In this document: positions 500-11,873 of the stretch, piece by piece
Position numbering within the stretch: position 1 is the stretch's first letter
How the letters are laid out: every line of letters begins with the position of its first letter
Source of the DNA: Escherichia coli
GTDB taxonomy: Bacteria > Pseudomonadota > Gammaproteobacteria > Enterobacterales > Enterobacteriaceae
Reading direction: 5' to 3' (one strand)
NCBI RefSeq assembly: GCF_029227855.1
Contig: NZ_CP074356.1
DNA: 64,000 bases
Made by a program: the position numbers and the translations under genes
Notes under the pieces: model-generated
What the model was told of the DNA's origin: nothing
The model's database searches: none
The model's input: only the letters and a program-made list of their open reading frames with translations

Positions 500-775
500 A
501 TGTCGATGTACACAACCGCCCAGCTGCTGGCGGCAAATGAGCAGAAATTTAAGTTTGATCCGCTGTTTCTGCGTCTCTTTTTCCGTGAGAGCTATCCCTT
601 CACCACGGAGAAAGTCTATCTCTCACAAATTCCGGGGCTGGTAAACATGGCGCTGTACGTTTCGCCGATTGTTTCCGGTGAGGTTATCCGCTCCCGTGGC
701 GGCTCCACCTCTGAATTTACGCCGGGATATGTCAAGCCGAAGCACTTAGCATGGCTTTCTGAGGCTTTCGTGTAG
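500..775 (+). pseudogene. E: Major capsid protein gpE, 5' fragment (codons 1-82) running into island DNA
   Basis: MSMYTTAQLLAANEQKFKFDPLFL...SEFTPGYVKPKH matches lambda gpE residues 1-82. After base 745 the frame reads LAWLSEAFV and stops at 773-775. The rest of E resumes at 11872. Confidence 0.93.
735..744 (+). repeat. Left copy of the 10-bp direct repeat AGCCGAAGCA (attL core)
   Basis: Identical 10-mer at 11864-11873. Both copies lie on the E codons for K-P-K-H. Confidence 0.8.
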
Positions 776-872
776 CTGCTGGTTTTTACACTTAATCTTT
801 TGATAATAAAGAATAAGTTTATCTGGCGCTTTCACTGAATTTTCCTCGTTATCTGTGTGTTGCAATCATCTC

Positions 873-893
873 TGTATTGCAGCTTGTATTGCT
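873..893 (+). repeat. Tandem TGTATTGC motif (TGTATTGCAGCTTGTATTGCT), candidate arm-type Int binding site, left arm
   Basis: A near-identical 21-mer (TGTATTGCAGCATGTATTGCT) lies in the same orientation at 11768-11788. A degenerate third copy, TGTGTTGCAA, lies at 857-866. Confidence 0.5.
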
Positions 894-907
894 TTTTGGG
901 GCTAAAA

Positions 908-2143
908 ATGGCTGGCGAGAACAAACTGAGCGACAAAGCGCTTAAAGGATATCTGGGGAAACCCAGAGAAAAGCAGATCACCATTGCTGATGGAAAGGGG
1001 CTTTCTATTCGTGTGAGTACTAAAGGGGCTGTGAGCTTTGTTTTCTTCTACAGGTTAGCAGGTGGCCGGGCTGCTCCGGTCTGGCTAACGTTGGGTAAAT
1101 ATCCTGATATGTCACTCAAACAGGCAAGGGAAAAGCGCGACGAGTGCCGTGGTTGGTTGGCTGACAAACGTGATCCGCGTATCCAGATTAAGATTCAGGC
1201 TGAAGAACGCTTAAAGCCGGTCACAGTGGAGGATGCACTAAATTACTGGTATGAAAATTACTGTAAGGTGCGTCGTAAAACTCATGCTGTAACGCTTGGC
1301 AGATTTCGAAAGCATATCTTTCCCTATATCGGTCATTTGCCCGTAAATGACACTCACCTATATGAATAGCTGGACTGTTTTGACCGAATTAAACGTAATG
1401 CACCAGTTATGGCGGCGTATGTTTTTTCTGACACTAAATTAGCTCTTCGTTTTTGTCGGGTACGCCAGTACGCGACGTGTGATGCTTTAAAGGATTTGCG
1501 CATGAGTGATGTGGGGCAGATTGCAGGTAAGCGGGATCGGGTTCTGGATGAGGTCGAACTCGGCCAGCTCTGGAAGGCAATTTTTGTCGAGCCTGATTTA
1601 AAACTAATGTCTGAATACACGCGAAAAATGTTTGTGCTTTGTACAGTATTTGGATGTCGAATGAGTGAAGCCCGATTATCAGAATGGAGCGAATGGGATC
1701 TCGAAAGTTGGGTTTGGACTGTGCCAAAAGATCACTCAAAAACTGGTGTTGAAATCGTCAGACCAGTACCTGAAATTCTACGACAGTGGGTAACGGATGT
1801 TCACGAAGAGACAAAACATACTGGTTATGTGCTGGGAAGTCTGCGAATTAGAGAAAGCGTAAGCAAGATTGGGGGGAAAATCGGTAAACGTTTGGGCCAT
1901 GAAAAACAATGGTCACTACACGACCTTAGAAGAACGCTATCTACTCATCTAAGTGATCTCGGTGTTGAATTTTATGTAGTAGAACAACTGTTAGGCCATG
2001 CGCTACCTGGCGTGGCAGGTGTTTACAACCGGAGTAAGTTTATGGCTAAAAAACTGGATGCTCTGGAACTCTGGACTACATATCTCAATAGCATCGCAGC
2101 TGCTGATTCAAAAGTGACAATCCTCAAACAAAAGGCTGGTTAG
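908..2143 (+). pseudogene. int: P4-family tyrosine integrase interrupted by one in-frame amber codon
   Basis: ORFs 857-1369 and 1409-2143 are in the same frame, separated only by TAG at 1367-1369 (context LYE*LDCFDRI; TGG/Trp would fit). The C-terminal part has HDLRRT, LLGH and GVYNRS catalytic-type motifs. The ATG at 908 gives MAGENKLSDKALK. Confidence 0.85.
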
Positions 2144-2144
2144 C

Positions 2145-2375
2145 ATGAAAAAAATGGCAATTGTTGATAAAAAGGGTCTGGAGTACATTCCTAACATTGA
2201 CCGAATGATCCGTGAGAAAGAATGTCGGGAGCTAACTACTCTTGCGAACAGCACACGCTGGAAGCTGGAGAAGGAAGGAAAATTTCCTAAGCGGATCAAG
2301 ATTGGTTCCACTGCTGTTGCATATCGTCTTTCAGAAGTGCAGGCATGGATTCGAGGTGAGTGGGAAACAACTTAA
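2145..2375 (+). CDS. alpA: AlpA-family HTH regulator/excisionase-like protein
   Basis: 76 aa. IREKECRELTTLANSTRWKLEKEGKFPKRIKIGSTAVAYRLSEVQAWI fits the AlpA pattern (G-FP-P-K-G ... W-x-x-EV-x-W). The ATG lies 1 nt after the int stop. Confidence 0.8.
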   Translation: MKKMAIVDKKGLEYIPNIDRMIREKECRELTTLANSTRWKLEKEGKFPKRIKIGSTAVAYRLSEVQAWIRGEWETT

Positions 2376-2382
2376 CTATTAG

Positions 2383-3213
2383 GTGGGCATTGTGGCTATA
2401 TTTCATTATACAGATCTTTTTGGTTTGAAAGGTATATTAGACTCTAATTCTTTATGGGCTACAAACATATATTTCTTAAATGATAAAGAGGAGTCTAACC
2501 ATGGATGTGAATGCTTTCGAAATACAATTAAAATAGTTGATGACAATATCATTCCAAAAGATAAGAAAACTATTTTGCTCAAGTCTCTTGACATGTATGA
2601 GAAAGGGAGGTTACAAAAAGAAAAAGGGATTGATAAACATGTTTATAGCATCTCTTTTTGTAAGGAAAACGATAAGTTAAGTCAGTGGAGAGGTTACGGA
2701 AATAAACAGGGTGTTTGCATTGAGTTTGATGCGGATGAACTTGTGAGCTTTTCTCAAAATATTTATTTAAATTGTGTTGCACATGATGTTATATATTCAA
2801 ATAATAACGATATTACTAAGATGAGTAAGGAGTTGGGAGAGTTTTTTTCTTGTAATGGTATTAATATTAAAGAAATGAATGATCATTTTGTAACAATGGT
2901 CTCTACGTATCAATTTATATCTAAATACATCCCATTTTTTAAACATCCTAGTTTTATCGAAGAGAATGAATTTAGATTGGTATTTACTCCGTGGATGCAA
3001 ATGCCAGATGTGCACTTCAGAATAAATAATAATGGGATCATCCCTTATATCATCATTGATAATAAAGATAATAGAAAGTTACCAATTAAAAGCATTACAA
3101 TTGGCCCGACAAACGATTATGATTTCATTGAGGCTGGTATAAAAATGTTCTTGGATTCAAGAGGATTTAGTTCTGTGGAAATTAAATCCTCATCAATTCC
3201 ATTCAGGGGGTAA
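2383..3213 (+). CDS. DUF2971-like protein (AT-rich cargo)
   Basis: 276 aa with a GTG start. Motifs FHYTD...GIL, FLNDKEE, SISFC...DKLSQWRGYG..GVCIEF and KHPSFIEENEFR resemble the DUF2971 signature. The gene is markedly AT-rich compared with its neighbours. Confidence 0.6.
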   Translation: MGIVAIFHYTDLFGLKGILDSNSLWATNIYFLNDKEESNHGCECFRNTIKIVDDNIIPKDKKTILLKSLDMYEKGRLQKEKGIDKHVYSISFCKENDKLSQWRGYGNKQGVCIEFDADELVSFSQNIYLNCVAHDVIYSNNNDITKMSKELGEFFSCNGINIKEMNDHFVTMVSTYQFISKYIPFFKHPSFIEENEFRLVFTPWMQMPDVHFRINNNGIIPYIIIDNKDNRKLPIKSITIGPTNDYDFIEAGIKMFLDSRGFSSVEIKSSSIPFRG

Positions 3214-3344: not shown

Positions 3345-3701
3345 TCAATATTTAGGTGGTTCAACAAGAGCGTTTATCATTGCTCTCAAATTATCGCGAA
3401 CACTTATCCAAGTCTGTTCTGCTCGTTCTAACTCATCAGTGTACAACTTTAATGTTTTATCTATGCCATATGTGGCTATTAAATTTATAGCTTCTTGTAA
3501 TTTTTCAGGATTATTCCTTCTTGGGGGAGTGAATATACCACGGATTTTTCCGGTAATTAAAGCTTTACGGTGTCTACATAGAATACCTTTACTTCCTGCT
3601 GGACAATTACAAGTCATGATTAGCGAGCCAGAATCGTTTGATACAGTGACTATGTATACATCCAAACTACTGCTACTTGTTGCGAAGAATTCGTATTTCA
3701 T
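3345..3701 (-). CDS. Small SWIM-type zinc-finger protein
   Basis: 118 aa. CNCPAGSKGILCRHRKAL fits the CxC...CxH SWIM motif. Convergent with the DUF2971-like gene. Confidence 0.6.
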   Translation of the reverse strand: MKYEFFATSSSSLDVYIVTVSNDSGSLIMTCNCPAGSKGILCRHRKALITGKIRGIFTPPRRNNPEKLQEAINLIATYGIDKTLKLYTDELERAEQTWISVRDNLRAMINALVEPPKY

Positions 3702-7954: not shown

Positions 7955-8128
7955 ATGCTACATAAATCCCGACCAAAGGGAGTGAAGATATTAACACTAA
8001 TTGTCCGCACTGAAGTTGTCACACCAAAACTTTATACAACATTGCACTCGGTTGCATGTGTTCGCATGACAAATATCGGTGATAGCATATATCCACAATT
8101 ATTTTTAATGAATGCAAAGAGGATGCGT

Positions 8129-9169
8129 ATGGTTGATTTATATTCGCCTACTCAGCTTGTACAGGTAGTTAATGCTGTAGATGTACAAAAACAACTAAAT
8201 GCGTTGTTTACCAGTTTGTTTTTTACTCGCTCGGTAATGTTTGAATCGCGCGATATTATTCTTGATACAATCGACGATCCAAATATCCCAATTGCAGCGT
8301 TTTGTTCTCCTATGGTGGGTAGTAAAGTTTCACGTGACGAAGGGTACGAATCAAAAACAATTCGTCCAGGCTATATGAAGCCGAAAAGCAGCATTGATCC
8401 AAATAAGTTAGCTGTGCGCCCTGCTGGTGTGTCACCTGAGCAATACAATGCTTTTGGGGCGCGTAATATTAAAGTTAAACAGGCGATTGTAAATCAGGCT
8501 AAAGCTATTCGTGCACGTATTGAATGGCTTGCTGTTCAGGCAATCACAACGGGGAAAAATATCATTGAGGGCGATGGTATTGAACGTTATGAGCTGGACT
8601 GGAATATAAAACCACAAAATATCATCACTCAGTCTGGCGGTACTGAGTGGTCAGGTAAGGATAAAGAAACTTTTGATCCAAATGATGATATTGAGAGCTA
8701 CGCAGAATTTAGTGAGGGCGTCACTAATATCATCATTATGGGTGGTAATGTATGGAAGAAATACCGTTCATTCAGAGCGATAAAAGAGGCTTTGGATACC
8801 CGTCGTGGTTCTAATTCCGAACTGGAAACGGCCCTTAAAGACCTTGGTGATTCGGTGAGTTTTAAAGGGTATATGGGCGATGTTGCGATTGTTGTTTACA
8901 GCGGGCGTTATACCGACGAGGACGGAACAGAAAAACATTTCCTTGATCCTGATTTGATGGTGCTTGGCAATACGGCTCTTCAGGGGATTGTCGCCTATGG
9001 CGGTATTCAGGATCCGGAGCTAATCCGAATGGGGCTGACTAAAGCCGAACTTGCACCGAAAAACTATATTGTGCCTGGTGATCCGGCTATTGAATATGTG
9101 CAGACACATTCAGCACCACAGCCAATACCGGCCCGCATCAATCGTTTTGTTACCGTTCGCATTGGCTAA
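8129..9169 (+). CDS. Satellite-encoded major capsid protein, gpE (lambda E) family
   Basis: 346 aa. The C-terminal half aligns by eye with lambda gpE: ITQSGGTEWSGKDKETFDPNDDIESYA, LDTRRGSNSELETALKDLG, YMGDVAIVVYSGRY, MVLGNTA, PGDPA. The N-terminal half is much more diverged. The ATG at 8129 has AAGAGGA 6 nt upstream. The longer ORF from 7916 has no homology support. Confidence 0.88.
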   Translation: MVDLYSPTQLVQVVNAVDVQKQLNALFTSLFFTRSVMFESRDIILDTIDDPNIPIAAFCSPMVGSKVSRDEGYESKTIRPGYMKPKSSIDPNKLAVRPAGVSPEQYNAFGARNIKVKQAIVNQAKAIRARIEWLAVQAITTGKNIIEGDGIERYELDWNIKPQNIITQSGGTEWSGKDKETFDPNDDIESYAEFSEGVTNIIIMGGNVWKKYRSFRAIKEALDTRRGSNSELETALKDLGDSVSFKGYMGDVAIVVYSGRYTDEDGTEKHFLDPDLMVLGNTALQGIVAYGGIQDPELIRMGLTKAELAPKNYIVPGDPAIEYVQTHSAPQPIPARINRFVTVRIG

Positions 9170-9178
9170 GGGGGAGCA

Positions 9179-9520
9179 ATGGCTACTCATTACACTGAAC
9201 TCATGGCTGGCACTGAAGCACTGGTGACTACGCTGGGGATATTTTCAGCTAATAAAGGGGTAATTCCTGCATTTACGCCACTGATGCAGGAAGATGCAAC
9301 AGGTGCACTGGTGGTATGGGATGGTTCGAGCGTAGGTAAAGCGGTTTATGTTTCCGCTGTACAAATCGACACCGCGAAAAAAACACAGGCTCAGGTCTAT
9401 AAGACAGGTGTCTTAAATGTTGATGCTCTGAACTGGCCTGAGTCTGTTAAAGAACTGTCAGTAAAGGTTGCAGCGTTTGTTGGCTCAGGTATTTCTGTTC
9501 AGCCGCTGGCTCGTGTGTAA
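9179..9520 (+). CDS. Satellite-encoded head decoration protein, gpD family
   Basis: 113 aa. Shares TPLM, LVxWDG, YKxG, LxWPE and AFxGxGIS with lambda gpD in the same order. Confidence 0.75.
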   Translation: MATHYTELMAGTEALVTTLGIFSANKGVIPAFTPLMQEDATGALVVWDGSSVGKAVYVSAVQIDTAKKTQAQVYKTGVLNVDALNWPESVKELSVKVAAFVGSGISVQPLARV

Positions 9521-9922: not shown

Positions 9923-9948
9923 AGGACCCGCTCTGGCTGGCGGGTCCT
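9923..9948 (+). terminator. Hairpin after the capsid module
   Basis: AGGACCCGC (9923-9931) pairs with GCGGGTCCT (9940-9948), followed by TTCC (a weak T-run). Confidence 0.45.
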
Positions 9949-9954
9949 TTCCGG

Positions 9955-10140
9955 CGATCCAGAACGTTACGGGGCGTCAGGCGCGCAGTTTTTCGCTATT
10001 TGTGAAAATTTTCCTGTTTAAGGCGTTTCCGTTCTTCTTCGCCGTAACTTAATGTTTTTATTAAAAACACCCCCTAAAAAGAAAGGAAACGACAGGTGCT
10101 AAAAACAGGCTTTTTGGCCTCTGTCGTTTCCTTTCTCTGG
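9955..10140 (+). other. cos: Lambda-type cos site (cosN plus cosB R3-I1-R2-R1) with no adjacent terminase genes
   Basis: CGTTACG|GGGCGTCAGGCG|CGCAGTTTTTCGCTATTTGTGAAAATTTTCCTGTTTAAGGCGTTTCCGTTCTTCTTCG...GAAAGGAAACGACAGGTGCT...GGCTTTTTGGCCTCTGTCGTTTCCTTTCTCTG is collinear with my memory of the first ~180 bp of lambda. The R-site repeats CGTTTCC lie at about 10023-10034, 10081-10095 (inverted) and 10121-10135. The predicted 12-nt end at 9972-9983 matches lambda GGGCGGCGACCT at 7 of 12 positions. Confidence 0.85.
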
Positions 10141-10479
10141 TTTTGTTGCCATCCGTCGCGGTCTATCACCAGAAAAAATCTTATCCCTGAGTTGAATCAG
10201 GCCCTATTCAGAAGCGGCCAATAACGCGCCGCTAGCTTCACTTCATAGTTATGGCCTACTTCTGCGCCATTGCAATTGCTTTATGCGCCTTGATGGTGGA
10301 ATATAGAGCAAGCAGTTTGCGAATAACAAAGTTTCATATGTTTTTTGCTGTGTGGCTAGACAACTTTACAGCAGAGTTTTGTGTCAGTTCTTTATGTGTG
10401 CAAGCAAGCTTGAGGGGGAATTACTTCTGGCTGTATCTTTGCTTAAGAACAGCAATAATTTAATCATAAGGAAATGTAT

Positions 10480-10513: not shown

Positions 10514-11656
10514 TTAACTCCTTATTAGAGAGTAAATTCCATCCTCTTTAAGGAAGTCTATTACTTCAAAGAATGAGATAAAGAATTCCCAAGAACCAAA
10601 AGCATATGCATGAATTTCGTAAGGTGCAAAATGGAATCTAAATCCATCACTATTTATTGTGAACGAGTCTAAGTTACTATCCATGATACCCGTTGCAAAC
10701 GTACTAATGTCGTCCTCACTTGGTTTTTCACCAGTTTTCTCCCAAAATTCACGAGCTGATTCAGAGATTATTTTTTGTTTTATCTTATTAATCGCTTCTT
10801 GCTCTTTCCCTTCGGTAAATACATCCCATAAACTAAATTTGTATGCGTAGTCATCCTTGGTTATTACGAAATTACTAGTTTCAAAATGACTGTTAGGGTG
10901 TGCTGCTCCCGCACCATACCAATGTACGGAATGAAGGATGCTCATGACATTTTCGTTACAGTATGAGATGTTATAACTTTCATTATAGGAACTAGTGTAA
11001 GTGTGTTTATATTCTTCATCCCAATATGGTGTTCCTGGCCATAGTGATGTGCGTTCAGAAAAAATATGTAAAGCCGCTTTTCCTGAAAAGTAATCACTAA
11101 TGAGTTTTGCTGATTTCGGTAATGTATGGCTTTCAATTCTTGGATATGCTATTTCAATTTCATGCCCTGGGATCTTGTTATATTCTTCCTTGAAAACCTC
11201 GCTGCTAAAGTTAAATGGCCCATAAGTGATACCTTGAGATATTTCAAGTTTTTGTTGCGATGCTGCTAATCTTAAAGATCTAGATAAAATGTCCCAACCA
11301 TCATTTCTCTTAAAATCAATGAATTGGAGCTTGCTTGATATGTAGGCGGGTACTTCGCAATCATCAATAAGTAATGGTATCACGAACACATCATCTGGTT
11401 TGTAATACTTTAGTTTATCAATGGCGTCATTTATTTCGCGGCGAATATAACCATTTTTCTGAGTGCTCACTTTGCTAAGGATAAGGATTATCAAGTTTGA
11501 ATTAGCGAAGTTTTTTTGGATTTCATAATCCCAGTTTACGCCAGCGGGTATATCTTTTACATCCATCCAAGGGGAATATCCTCCACTTTTTAGCCTTTCA
11601 TAGATTTCTTCAGTTATCGTTTCATCTTCTTTTGCATGAGCAAGAAAAATTTTCAT
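10514..11656 (-). CDS. TIR-domain protein fused to a DUF4163/DUF3298 (RsiV-like) C-terminal domain
   Basis: 380 aa with no signal peptide or TM segment visible. The N-terminus (MKIFLAHAKEDE...GYSPWMDVKDIPAGVNWDYEI...SNLIILILSKVSTQKNGYIRREINDAI) fits the TIR_2 pattern, including the conserved Glu position. The C-terminus has IEIAYPRI... and HWYGAGAAHPNSHFETSNF...FSLWDVF, resembling the DUF4163 and DUF3298 motifs. AT-rich. Confidence 0.7.
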   Translation of the reverse strand: MKIFLAHAKEDETITEEIYERLKSGGYSPWMDVKDIPAGVNWDYEIQKNFANSNLIILILSKVSTQKNGYIRREINDAIDKLKYYKPDDVFVIPLLIDDCEVPAYISSKLQFIDFKRNDGWDILSRSLRLAASQQKLEISQGITYGPFNFSSEVFKEEYNKIPGHEIEIAYPRIESHTLPKSAKLISDYFSGKAALHIFSERTSLWPGTPYWDEEYKHTYTSSYNESYNISYCNENVMSILHSVHWYGAGAAHPNSHFETSNFVITKDDYAYKFSLWDVFTEGKEQEAINKIKQKIISESAREFWEKTGEKPSEDDISTFATGIMDSNLDSFTINSDGFRFHFAPYEIHAYAFGSWEFFISFFEVIDFLKEDGIYSLIRS

Positions 11657-11767: not shown

Positions 11768-11788
11768 TGTATTGCAGCATGTATTGCT
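11768..11788 (+). repeat. Tandem TGTATTGC motif (TGTATTGCAGCATGTATTGCT), candidate arm-type Int site, right arm
   Basis: Matches 873-893 at 20 of 21 positions, in the same orientation. Confidence 0.5.
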
Positions 11789-11863: not shown

Positions 11864-11873
11864 AGCCGAAGCA
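11864..11873 (+). repeat. Right copy of the 10-bp direct repeat AGCCGAAGCA (attR core)
   Basis: Identical to 735-744. Followed by TGAGGTGAATCCGCAG, the continuation of lambda E (H-E-V-N-P-Q). Confidence 0.8.

What the first reader, a model, noticed from the sequence alone, without database searches (positions are those of the whole stretch)
873..893. Same-orientation 21-bp double motif near both island ends: candidate arm-type integrase sites
Seen in sequence:
- TGTATTGCAGCTTGTATTGCT lies at 873-893, about 130 bp inside attL, just upstream of the int start at 908.
- TGTATTGCAGCATGTATTGCT lies at 11768-11788, about 75 bp inside attR.
- Each is a tandem of TGTATTGC. A degenerate copy, TGTGTTGCAA, lies at 857-866.

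Established knowledge: lambda- and P4-type integrases bind arm-type repeats flanking the core through their N-terminal domain.

Inference: these are the P and P' arm sites. The left set overlaps the int promoter region, suggesting autoregulation.
Basis: partly seen in the sequence, partly recalled or inferred. Interest (0 to 1): 0.5.

Follow-up and report, generated by a model that had tools for sequence, protein, structure and literature searches.

The report
Integrase arm sites of embedded satellite
The repeated 21-bp motif near both ends of this 11-kb phage satellite, which sits inside a prophage capsid gene, is real and is most likely where the satellite's integrase grips the DNA arms, but motif and idea were published in 2023.

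Summary
TGTATTGCAGCTTGTATTGCT (873-893) and TGTATTGCAGCATGTATTGCT (11768-11788) are the only two matches in 64 kb; none is expected by chance.

They lie inside an 11.1-kb island flanked by the 10-bp repeat AGCCGAAGCA (735-744, 11864-11873). The island interrupts a lambda-like major capsid gene E.

[quoted passage not shown] Tommasini, Mageeney and Williams (2023, PMC10111431) already described this doubled motif, its positions (81 +/- 2 bp and 132 +/- 2 bp from the attP centre) and the arm-site hypothesis. They left integrase (Int), AlpA or an unknown protein open as the binder.

My comparisons favour Int:
- Relatives at 42-53% Int identity, mostly fis PICIs, carry 12-bp-period doublets at the same distances from the core, with six other half-site sequences.
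- Half-site type tracks Int residues 1-61, the predicted beta-sheet part of the arm-binding domain, not AlpA. AlpA can be 97-100% identical between elements with different doublets.
- In a natural swap in Proteus, only the doublet, the 5'UTR and int codons 1-61 differ.

Autoregulation of int is plausible by precedent but is not shown. Int in this window carries an amber stop (W154).

The finding is already known; interest is low to moderate.

The parts
735..744 (+). attL identity block (core), AGCCGAAGCA, inside the lambda-like capsid gene E
   Evidence: Longest shared string between the two junctions. It is the same 10-bp block reported for Eco567.11capE.
793..805 (-). IHF-consensus-like site TATCAAAAGATTA between the core and the P' doublet
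   Evidence: The only WATCARNNNNTTR match in either arm. Consensus match only; function not tested.
785..814 (+). Only sigma-70-like promoter match upstream of int (TTTACA-18-AAGAAT)
   Evidence: It is weak (9 of 12 positions) and lies upstream of the doublet, not over it.
856..863 (+). Degenerate third half-site TGTGTTGC, 17 bp upstream of the doublet
   Evidence: One mismatch to TGTATTGC. A CGTTGCA-like remnant sits at the same place in other site groups. Its role is unknown.
873..893 (+). P' (int-proximal) doublet: two TGTATTGC half-sites 12 bp apart; candidate arm-type Int sites
   Evidence: The first half-site starts 133.5 bp from the core centre. It matches the published motif tgTGTATTGCantgTGTATTGCa.
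908..1090 (+). int codons 1-61, the predicted beta-sheet part of the arm DNA-binding domain; the segment that covaries with half-site type
   Evidence: Pfam PF13356 covers residues 7-93. PDB 3ju0/3jtz match residues 17-98. Covariation.
908..2143 (+). P4-type tyrosine integrase gene, interrupted here by an in-frame amber codon at 1367-1369 (W154 to stop)
   Evidence: Other copies have TGG at this codon.
2145..2375 (+). alpA (Phage_AlpA, candidate excisionase/regulator); the rival reader of the motif
   Evidence: Pfam PF05930, E = 3e-15.
11768..11788 (+). P (int-distal) doublet, co-oriented with the proximal one; candidate arm-type Int sites
   Evidence: The second half-site ends 81.5 bp before the core centre.
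11864..11873 (+). attR identity block (core), AGCCGAAGCA; capsid gene E resumes here

Best explanation
The two doublets are the arm-type binding sites of the satellite's own P4-family tyrosine integrase. After excision the island ends join into one attP. In it the distal doublet ends about 81 bp upstream of the crossover centre, and the proximal doublet starts about 133 bp downstream. The N-terminal arm-binding domain of each Int protomer would hold one 8-9-bp half-site (four half-sites, four protomers) while the C-terminal domains hold the core. A DNA bend, perhaps at the IHF-like site at 793-805, would help form the recombination complex that inserts the satellite into, or removes it from, capsid gene E of the helper prophage.

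Shown here: the sites, their geometry, their conservation, and their covariation with Int residues 1-61.

Inferred: physical binding by Int, one protomer per half-site, and the bend. A side effect, repression of int by Int bound 15 bp upstream of its start codon, is plausible but untested.

In this window Int is truncated by an amber codon, so the sites are probably idle unless Int is supplied in trans.
For: 1. Int has the arm DNA-binding domain (PF13356, E = 2.6e-20). It matches the solved arm-binding domains 3ju0 and 3jtz.

2. The same doublet is present at both ends, co-oriented, in elements whose Int is about 52-54% identical in protein (about 66% in DNA) and which target other genes: terL (L004), portal (L005) and ClpP protease (L006). 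The distances are the same: about 132-135 bp and 77-81 bp.

3. Across 13 HE-PICI integrases, 38 of 95 arm-domain positions are invariant against 61 of 316 elsewhere.

4. All 80 relatives from other species (Int 42-89% identical) have a 12-bp-period doublet upstream of int. Seven half-site types occur.

5. For types A, B, C, E and F the distal end carries the same type at the same geometry.

6. In 40 fis-targeting elements of five types, the core-to-doublet distance is 140-144 bp (sd 1.0). The doublet-to-ATG distance is 28-133 bp (sd 20). The sites are therefore positioned relative to the crossover site, not to int.

7. Half-site type follows Int residues 1-61:
- Int 1-61: 0 of 1404 different-type pairs are >=90% identical (maximum 64%); the nearest neighbour has the same type in 59 of 60 cases.
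- AlpA: 62 different-type pairs are >=90% identical (maximum 100%); nearest neighbour same type in 43 of 60.
- Int 96-end reaches 96% identity between types.

8. Natural cassette swap, L173 versus L174. The DNA is 88.9% identical from the fis core to the doublet and 96.7% identical from int codon 62 onward, and AlpA is 97% identical. Only the doublet, the 5'UTR and codons 1-61 are unrelated. The pattern repeats in L152/L183 and in L272 versus L338/L374.

9. One host genome can hold several types: Xenorhabdus innexi has A, E and B. This argues against a host factor.
Against: - No binding or recombination data exist for this motif, here or in the literature I could search.
- The proximal doublet lies within about 30-130 bp of int codons 1-61. 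One recombination tract would move both, so part of the covariation could be hitch-hiking.
- For the actual swap pairs (L173/L174, L152/L183) the distal ends lie beyond the DNA I could fetch. Both-end concordance is shown on other elements of the same types.
- Both doublets point the same way, unlike lambda, where to my recollection the P and P' sites are inverted relative to each other.
- The single-sequence structure model of Int residues 1-102 was of low confidence (pLDDT 45) and cannot support claims about individual residues.
- Int in this window is a pseudogene.
Confidence: 0.8

Rival explanations
1. The doublets are binding sites for AlpA, the Xis-like regulator encoded just after int. 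AlpA would act as a recombination directionality factor or as an activator of int transcription.
For: AlpA homologues lie within 1-3 kb of int in nearly all relatives. Tommasini et al. list AlpA as a possible binder. RDFs of this fold commonly bind tandem direct repeats (my own knowledge).
Against: AlpA is 97-100% identical in elements whose doublets are unrelated, GTGGGGTAA versus TGTATAAACA. Conversely, TGTATTGC doublets are kept where AlpA is only 40% identical. To my knowledge, RDF sites normally lie in one arm only. Here identical doublets lie in both arms.
Confidence: 0.07
2. The proximal doublet is purely an operator controlling int expression, and the distal copy is incidental. The sites would have no role in recombination.
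For: The proximal doublet ends 15 bp before the int ATG. Integrases that read away from attL are often negatively autoregulated through sites in this interval (PMC2951348).
Against: The distal copy is conserved at a fixed distance from the core in five half-site types. The proximal copy keeps its distance to the core (sd 1.0 bp) while its distance to the ATG varies from 28 to 133 bp. No promoter-like site overlaps the motif.
Confidence: 0.05
3. A host protein, or an unidentified element-encoded protein, binds the doublets.
For: No protein has been shown to bind them. The 2023 paper keeps this option open.
Against: Different half-site types coexist in one host genome, which argues against a host factor. 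The swapped cassette encodes nothing except Int residues 1-61. The motif does not fit the IHF consensus.
Confidence: 0.06
4. The repeats are a chance or relic duplication with no function.
For: None beyond the short length of each half-site.
Against: No matches are expected by chance. The repeats are conserved in position and sequence in elements whose Int proteins are about 50% identical.
Confidence: 0.01

Closest known systems
Doubled attP motif of helper-embedded PICIs (Tommasini, Mageeney and Williams 2023, NAR Genom Bioinform 5:lqad036; PMC10111431)
   Same: Same sequence (tgTGTATTGCantgTGTATTGCa). Two co-oriented copies, the same distances from the attP centre (81 +/- 2 and 132 +/- 2 bp) and the same element type (11capE in capsid gene E). 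The same hypothesis (Int arm domains) is among three offered.
   Different: Nothing about the sites themselves; this window is another instance. The paper calls the motif unique to HE-PICIs and leaves the binder open. I find equivalent doublets of other sequences in fis PICIs, and covariation that points to Int.
Lambda Int arm-type sites P1, P2, P'1-P'3
   Same: A heterobivalent tyrosine recombinase has short repeats, unrelated to the core, in both arms of attP. They include tandem copies about one helical turn apart next to int. IHF-type bending is probably needed (established knowledge).
   Different: The half-site sequence differs. There are 2+2 sites rather than 2+3. Both sets are co-oriented. 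The distances differ (about -81 and +133). The arm domain belongs to a different Pfam family (PF13356, P4/CP4 type).
KplE1 (CPS-53) IntS/TorI module, with the attL region overlapping the intS promoter (Panis et al. 2010, PMC2951348)
   Same: int reads away from attL, so the P' arm sites lie between the core and the int start. IntS bound to arm-type sites represses its own promoter.
   Different: In KplE1 the promoter and binding sites were mapped experimentally. Here no promoter is mapped, and the one consensus match lies upstream of the doublet.
Arm-type binding domains of the HPI and HAI7 integrases (PDB 3jtz, 3ju0)
   Same: Int residues 17-98 align with these solved domains (E = 4.7e-6 and 3.8e-5).
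   Different: Sequence similarity is modest. These entries have no DNA-bound structure that I could use to map contacts.
Satellite phage P4 Int/attP
   Same: Same integrase family. The paper's tree places HE-PICI Int in a larger clade of mostly PICI integrases that also contains P4 Int. From memory, not checked here: P4 attP has arm repeats, and P4 Int represses Pint through its N-terminal part (Piazzolla et al. 2006).
   Different: P4 targets a tRNA-Leu gene and uses Vis rather than AlpA. I did not retrieve or compare P4 attP.

Membership tests
HE-PICI doubled attP motif (PMC10111431) | Tandem TGTATTGC core, tgTGTATTGCantgTGTATTGCa | tested here: met
   873-893 and 11768-11788. All four 8-mers are exact. 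The base after the second half-site is T rather than A in both copies.
HE-PICI doubled attP motif (PMC10111431) | Two co-oriented copies, 81 +/- 2 bp upstream and 132 +/- 2 bp downstream of the attP centre | tested here: met
   Both are on the + strand. The distances are 81.5 bp (end of distal doublet to core centre) and 133.5 bp (core centre to first T of proximal doublet), or 131.5 bp counted from the preceding 'tg'.
HE-PICI doubled attP motif (PMC10111431) | Element integrated in, and co-oriented with, a prophage late gene, with Int in the HE-PICI clade | tested here: met
   The island splits a lambda-like gene E. Int differs from the NRG857c 11capE Int at 4 of 411 positions, including the stop.
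Arm-type sites of heterobivalent tyrosine integrases | The integrase carries an N-terminal arm DNA-binding domain | tested here: met
   PF13356, E = 2.6e-20, residues 7-93. PDB 3ju0/3jtz.
Arm-type sites of heterobivalent tyrosine integrases | Repeats unrelated to the core sequence, present in both arms of attP at fixed distances from the crossover | tested here: met
   The core AGCCGAAGCA is unrelated to TGTATTGC. Distances are fixed across site groups and half-site types.
Arm-type sites of heterobivalent tyrosine integrases | Site sequence co-evolves with the arm-binding domain | tested here: met
   Int 1-61: nearest neighbour of the same type in 59 of 60 cases, and no different-type pair above 64% identity. 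Cassette swap. Caveat: the proximal site is physically linked to these codons.
Arm-type sites of heterobivalent tyrosine integrases | Direct, specific binding by the Int N-domain, and a requirement for recombination | not testable with these tools
   Needs EMSA or footprinting and att-site mutagenesis. No such data were found.
RDF (AlpA/Xis) binding sites | Site sequence follows the RDF protein | tested here: not met
   62 different-type pairs have AlpA >=90% identical, up to 100%.
IHF binding site | Match to WATCARNNNNTTR | tested here: not met
   The doublets do not match. The only match in the arms is at 793-805, minus strand.
Autoregulated int promoter overlapping attL (KplE1 type) | Int sites overlap the -35/-10 elements of the int promoter | tested here: inconclusive
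   There is one weak consensus match, at 785-814, 59 bp upstream of the doublet. The transcription start is not known.

The most novel reading that the evidence does not exclude
The doublets and Int residues 1-61 may form an exchangeable specificity cassette used across the whole PICI integrase clade, fis PICIs and HE-PICIs alike. The attP geometry is fixed: the first half-sites of the two doublets lie about 233 bp apart, at about -81 and +133 from the crossover. At least seven half-site 'dialects' exist. Lineages can switch dialect at all four half-sites while keeping the same core target and the same AlpA. This would give orthogonal recombination modules. Satellites that share one attachment site or one host could then avoid cross-excising each other. 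Xenorhabdus innexi, for example, holds three dialects. The 2023 paper states that the doubled motif is unique to HE-PICIs, so this generalisation appears not to have been described.
Probability: 0.5. Interest if true: 0.5.

Novelty: already known. Interest (0 to 1): 0.3.

Why it matters
For the finding as given, not much: it re-discovers a published motif, and the arm-site reading is what one expects of a P4-type integrase.

It is useful in two ways. First, it gives comparative evidence on a question the 2023 paper left open (Int, AlpA or something else) and points to Int residues 1-61. Second, it shows that the architecture is not peculiar to helper-embedded satellites but is shared by fis PICIs with other half-site sequences. 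If confirmed, these natural arm-domain and arm-site pairs are ready-made orthogonal parts for integrase engineering. They would also help explain how this clade changes core targets, among them 14 sites in prophage late genes, while keeping one recombination scaffold.

Tried and rejected
- tRNA search of the window found none. The island is not at a tRNA gene.
- Promoter and terminator scans gave one weak promoter-like site upstream of the left motif and none at the right end. They give no support for a promoter overlapping the motif.
- I first thought many relatives lacked AlpA, because a quick ORF scan found it next to int in only 34 of 80 loci. An HMM scan then found AlpA within 1-3 kb in nearly all. 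Absence of AlpA cannot be used as an argument.
- The single-sequence AlphaFold model of Int 1-102 had pLDDT 45. Only the rough strand/helix order is noted, and no residue-level claim is made.
- The far doublet of L179 (type B, not at fis) gave no clean direct repeat (6 bp only; spacing 292 bp). It is left out of the geometry.
- Anchored consensus of 42 proximal HE-PICI arms showed little conserved sequence beyond the doublet. No further protein site could be defined.
- Searches failed on input errors. One search was an incomplete script that printed nothing.
- I did not retrieve P4 attP. Statements about P4 rest on memory.

Full report
**1. The observation**

- A search for TGTATTGCAGCWTGTATTGCT with up to three mismatches finds only 873-893 and 11768-11788. 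No shuffle of the window gives a single match.
- The bare 8-mer occurs six times against 3.1 expected. Four of the six are these two doublets.
- Each doublet is two TGTATTGC units with a 12-bp period.
- A one-mismatch copy, TGTGTTGC, lies at 856-863.

**2. Context**

The window is a lambdoid prophage.
- Its decoration gene D and the start of capsid gene E run to position 744. Gene E resumes at 11864.
- The same 10 bp, AGCCGAAGCA, occur at 735-744 and 11864-11873. The 11,129 bp between them are an island.
- The island encodes:
  - a P4-type tyrosine integrase (908-2143; Arm-DNA-bind_3, SAM-like and catalytic domains);
  - AlpA (2145-2375);
  - a D5-type primase and an SSB;
  - its own E-like capsid protein and D-like decoration protein;
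  - a second AlpA-like protein;
  - a TIR-domain protein on the opposite strand.
- There is no tRNA gene in the window.
- About 176 of 5,426 complete E. coli genomes carry an int and left arm at least 95% identical, and in every listed genome they lie next to a split major capsid gene.
- In this window int has an in-frame TAG at 1367-1369 where other copies have TGG (W154).

**3. Already published**

A full-text search found Tommasini, Mageeney and Williams 2023 (PMC10111431).
- They describe helper-embedded PICIs (HE-PICIs). Their model element, Eco567.11capE of E. coli NRG857c, sits in capsid gene E with the same 10-bp identity block. Its Int differs from the window's at four positions, including the stop.
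- Their 'Attachment sites' section reports the doubled motif tgTGTATTGCantgTGTATTGCa. It has two co-oriented copies per element, 81 +/- 2 bp upstream and 132 +/- 2 bp downstream of the attP centre.
- They call the motif unique to HE-PICIs and absent from the closely related fis PICIs.
- None of the other papers that mention HE-PICIs tests the motif, judging by their titles and abstracts.
- The finding is therefore a re-discovery, and its main hypothesis is one of the three already on the table.

**4. Independent check of conservation and geometry**

- More distant int genes in E. coli (about 66% DNA identity) lie in a split terminase large-subunit gene (E. coli 042), a split portal gene (SCU-106) and a split ClpP-type protease gene of another satellite (ETEC-2264).
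- All three have GTGTATTGCA doublets just upstream of int and again at the far end, co-oriented.
- Measured to the centre of the identity block:

| Element | Core centre to proximal doublet (bp) | Distal doublet to core centre (bp) |
|---|---|---|
| window | 131.5-133.5 | 80.5-81.5 |
| terL element | 134 | 78 |
| portal element | 132.5 | 77.5 |
| protease element | 134.5 | 76.5 |

- A scan of IMG/VR for the doubled motif returned 80 stretches. About 35 have an int gene (50-99.5% protein identity) directly downstream of the motif.

**5. The wider family**

- I aligned 13 HE-PICI integrases. In this alignment 38 of 95 arm-domain positions are invariant, against 61 of 316 in the rest.
- I used the alignment to fetch 80 related loci from species-representative genomes (Int 42-89% identical; Enterobacterales, Vibrionaceae, Shewanella).
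- Every one has a tandem doublet upstream of int, with a 12-bp period in all but one (11 bp). Three degenerate cases were typed by eye. The half-site differs by lineage:

| Type | Half-site |
|---|---|
| A | TGTATTGC |
| B | TGTATAAA(CA) |
| C | GTGTATCA |
| D | GTGTAGTC |
| E | GTGGGGTA |
| F | GGGTACAT |
| G | TGAACCGA |

- Most non-A elements have TTCATGCCGTA, the reverse complement of the end of fis, about 140 bp upstream of the doublet. They are fis PICIs.
- Where both ends could be seen, the distal doublet is of the same type and in the same place:
  - type C (L154) and type F (L189, L202), with distal-start to proximal-start spacing of 232-234 bp;
  - type E (L229 and L282, on one contig);
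  - type B (in IMG/VR, 24 proximal copies with the fis core 141 bp before the doublet and 38 distal copies with the fis core 72 bp after it).
- Some loci show the two doublets 233 bp apart around one fis core. This is an attP-like junction, probably from tandem elements.
- In 40 fis-type loci the core-to-doublet distance is 140-144 bp (sd 1.0). The doublet-to-ATG distance ranges from 28 to 133 bp (sd 20). The sites are placed relative to the crossover point, not to the gene.

**6. Who reads the sites?**

For 61 loci with both proteins I compared half-site type with sequence identity:

| Region | Different-type pairs >=90% identical (of 1404) | Maximum identity between types | Nearest neighbour of the same type |
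|---|---|---|---|
| Int residues 1-61 | 0 | 64% | 59 of 60 |
| Int residues 96-end | 2 | 96% | 50 of 60 |
| AlpA | 62 | 100% | 43 of 60 |

- The clearest case is L173 (Proteus mirabilis, GTGGGGTAC doublet) against L174 (P. hauseri, TGTATAAACA doublet).
  - The DNA is 88.9% identical from the fis core up to the doublet.
  - It is 96.7% identical from int codon 62 onward, and AlpA is 97% identical.
  - The stretch between cannot be aligned. It holds the doublet, the 5'UTR and codons 1-61.
- The same pattern is seen in Xenorhabdus (L152/L183: AlpA 100%, Int 1-95 59%). It also appears in IMG/VR contigs (L272 versus L338/L374: Int 62-end 94-95%, AlpA 94%, Int 1-61 46-47%).
- Residues 1-61 are the predicted strand-rich part of the arm-binding domain. 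Residues 62-95 are its helix. This rests on the Pfam match and the 3ju0/3jtz alignment. The low-confidence model gives the same order of elements.
- One genome can hold several types: Xenorhabdus innexi has A, E and B. A host factor is therefore unlikely.
- The motif does not fit the IHF consensus. The one IHF-like match in the arms is at 793-805.

**7. Limits**

- All of this is comparative. The proximal doublet is physically close to codons 1-61, so a single exchange would carry both.
- The argument that this is more than linkage rests on the distal doublet, which is kilobases away in the integrated state. It always matches in the elements where both ends were visible. Those are not the same individual elements as the cleanest swap pairs, whose far ends lie beyond the 10-kb flanks.
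- In the circular form the two doublets and codons 1-61 are contiguous, but the conserved core lies between the doublets. One tract replacing both would also have to replace the core.

**8. Autoregulation**

- The proximal doublet ends 15 bp before the int start codon, so bound Int could hinder expression.
- KplE1 IntS does exactly this through P' arm sites that overlap its promoter (PMC2951348).
- In the window the only sigma-70-like match, at 785-814, lies upstream of the doublet. The variable doublet-to-ATG distance shows no constraint tied to the gene.

**9. Verdict**

- The interpretation as arm-type Int sites is the best-supported one (about 0.8).
- The finding itself is already known.
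- What may be new is the generalisation: equivalent doublets with other half-site sequences in fis PICIs, and an exchangeable cassette made of the doublet plus Int residues 1-61.

Noticed in passing
window 1367-1369: int carries an in-frame amber codon (TGG to TAG, W154) that is absent from two other E. coli copies checked, NRG857c and VCSW7. This satellite is probably locked in place, leaving the helper's capsid gene E permanently split.
   Followed up: partly
window 10514-11656 (- strand): The cargo gene at the attR end encodes a TIR_2 + DUF3298 protein (Pfam E = 2.8e-21), probably anti-phage defence. Related islands carry other cargo at this position: HEPN + DUF262 in NRG857c, and abortive-infection proteins in others.
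   Followed up: partly
window 9940-10146: A 207-bp non-coding stretch of the island is 90-92% identical to the unannotated region just upstream of Nu1 in lambdoid phages. It is presumably a cos site that lets the helper terminase package the satellite.
   Followed up: partly
window 8102-9169 and 9179-9520: The island encodes its own homologues of lambda capsid protein E (Pfam Phage_cap_E, E = 1.2e-41) and decoration protein D while interrupting the helper's E gene. The paper's model element 11capE likewise bears its own capsid gene.
   Followed up: no
window 2383-3213 and 3345-3701: Accessory genes next to the integration module encode a DUF2971 protein and, on the opposite strand, a SWIM zinc-finger protein. 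Their function here is unknown.
   Followed up: no
L198, L200, L207 (Shewanella) about -283 to -44 relative to int; L357, L372 (IMG/VR): Two co-oriented doublets lie about 233 bp apart around a single fis core. This is an attP-like junction inside chromosomal or viral contigs, most simply explained by tandem PICIs at fis or by excised circles.
   Followed up: partly
L139, L145, L148-L152, L154, L157-L161, L164, L170, L173 (between doublet and int ATG): A conserved box ATGAACTGA/ATGAACTAA lies between the proximal doublet and the int start in fis PICIs of types C, D and E. It is duplicated in L173, along with about 90 extra bp of 5'UTR. Its function is unknown.
   Followed up: no
L006 (E. coli ETEC-2264, NZ_CP023349.1 3525174-3535420): An HE-PICI is inserted in the ClpP-protease/capsid fusion gene of another satellite that lies next to a tRNA-Ile gene: a satellite nested in a satellite. 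The 2023 paper also reports this arrangement.
   Followed up: no
L235 (IMG/VR) 10384-10403: A GTGGGGTA doublet lies directly upstream of an integrase only about 24% identical to the type-E Int. The same half-site may be used by much more distant P4-like integrases, or this may be chance.
   Followed up: no
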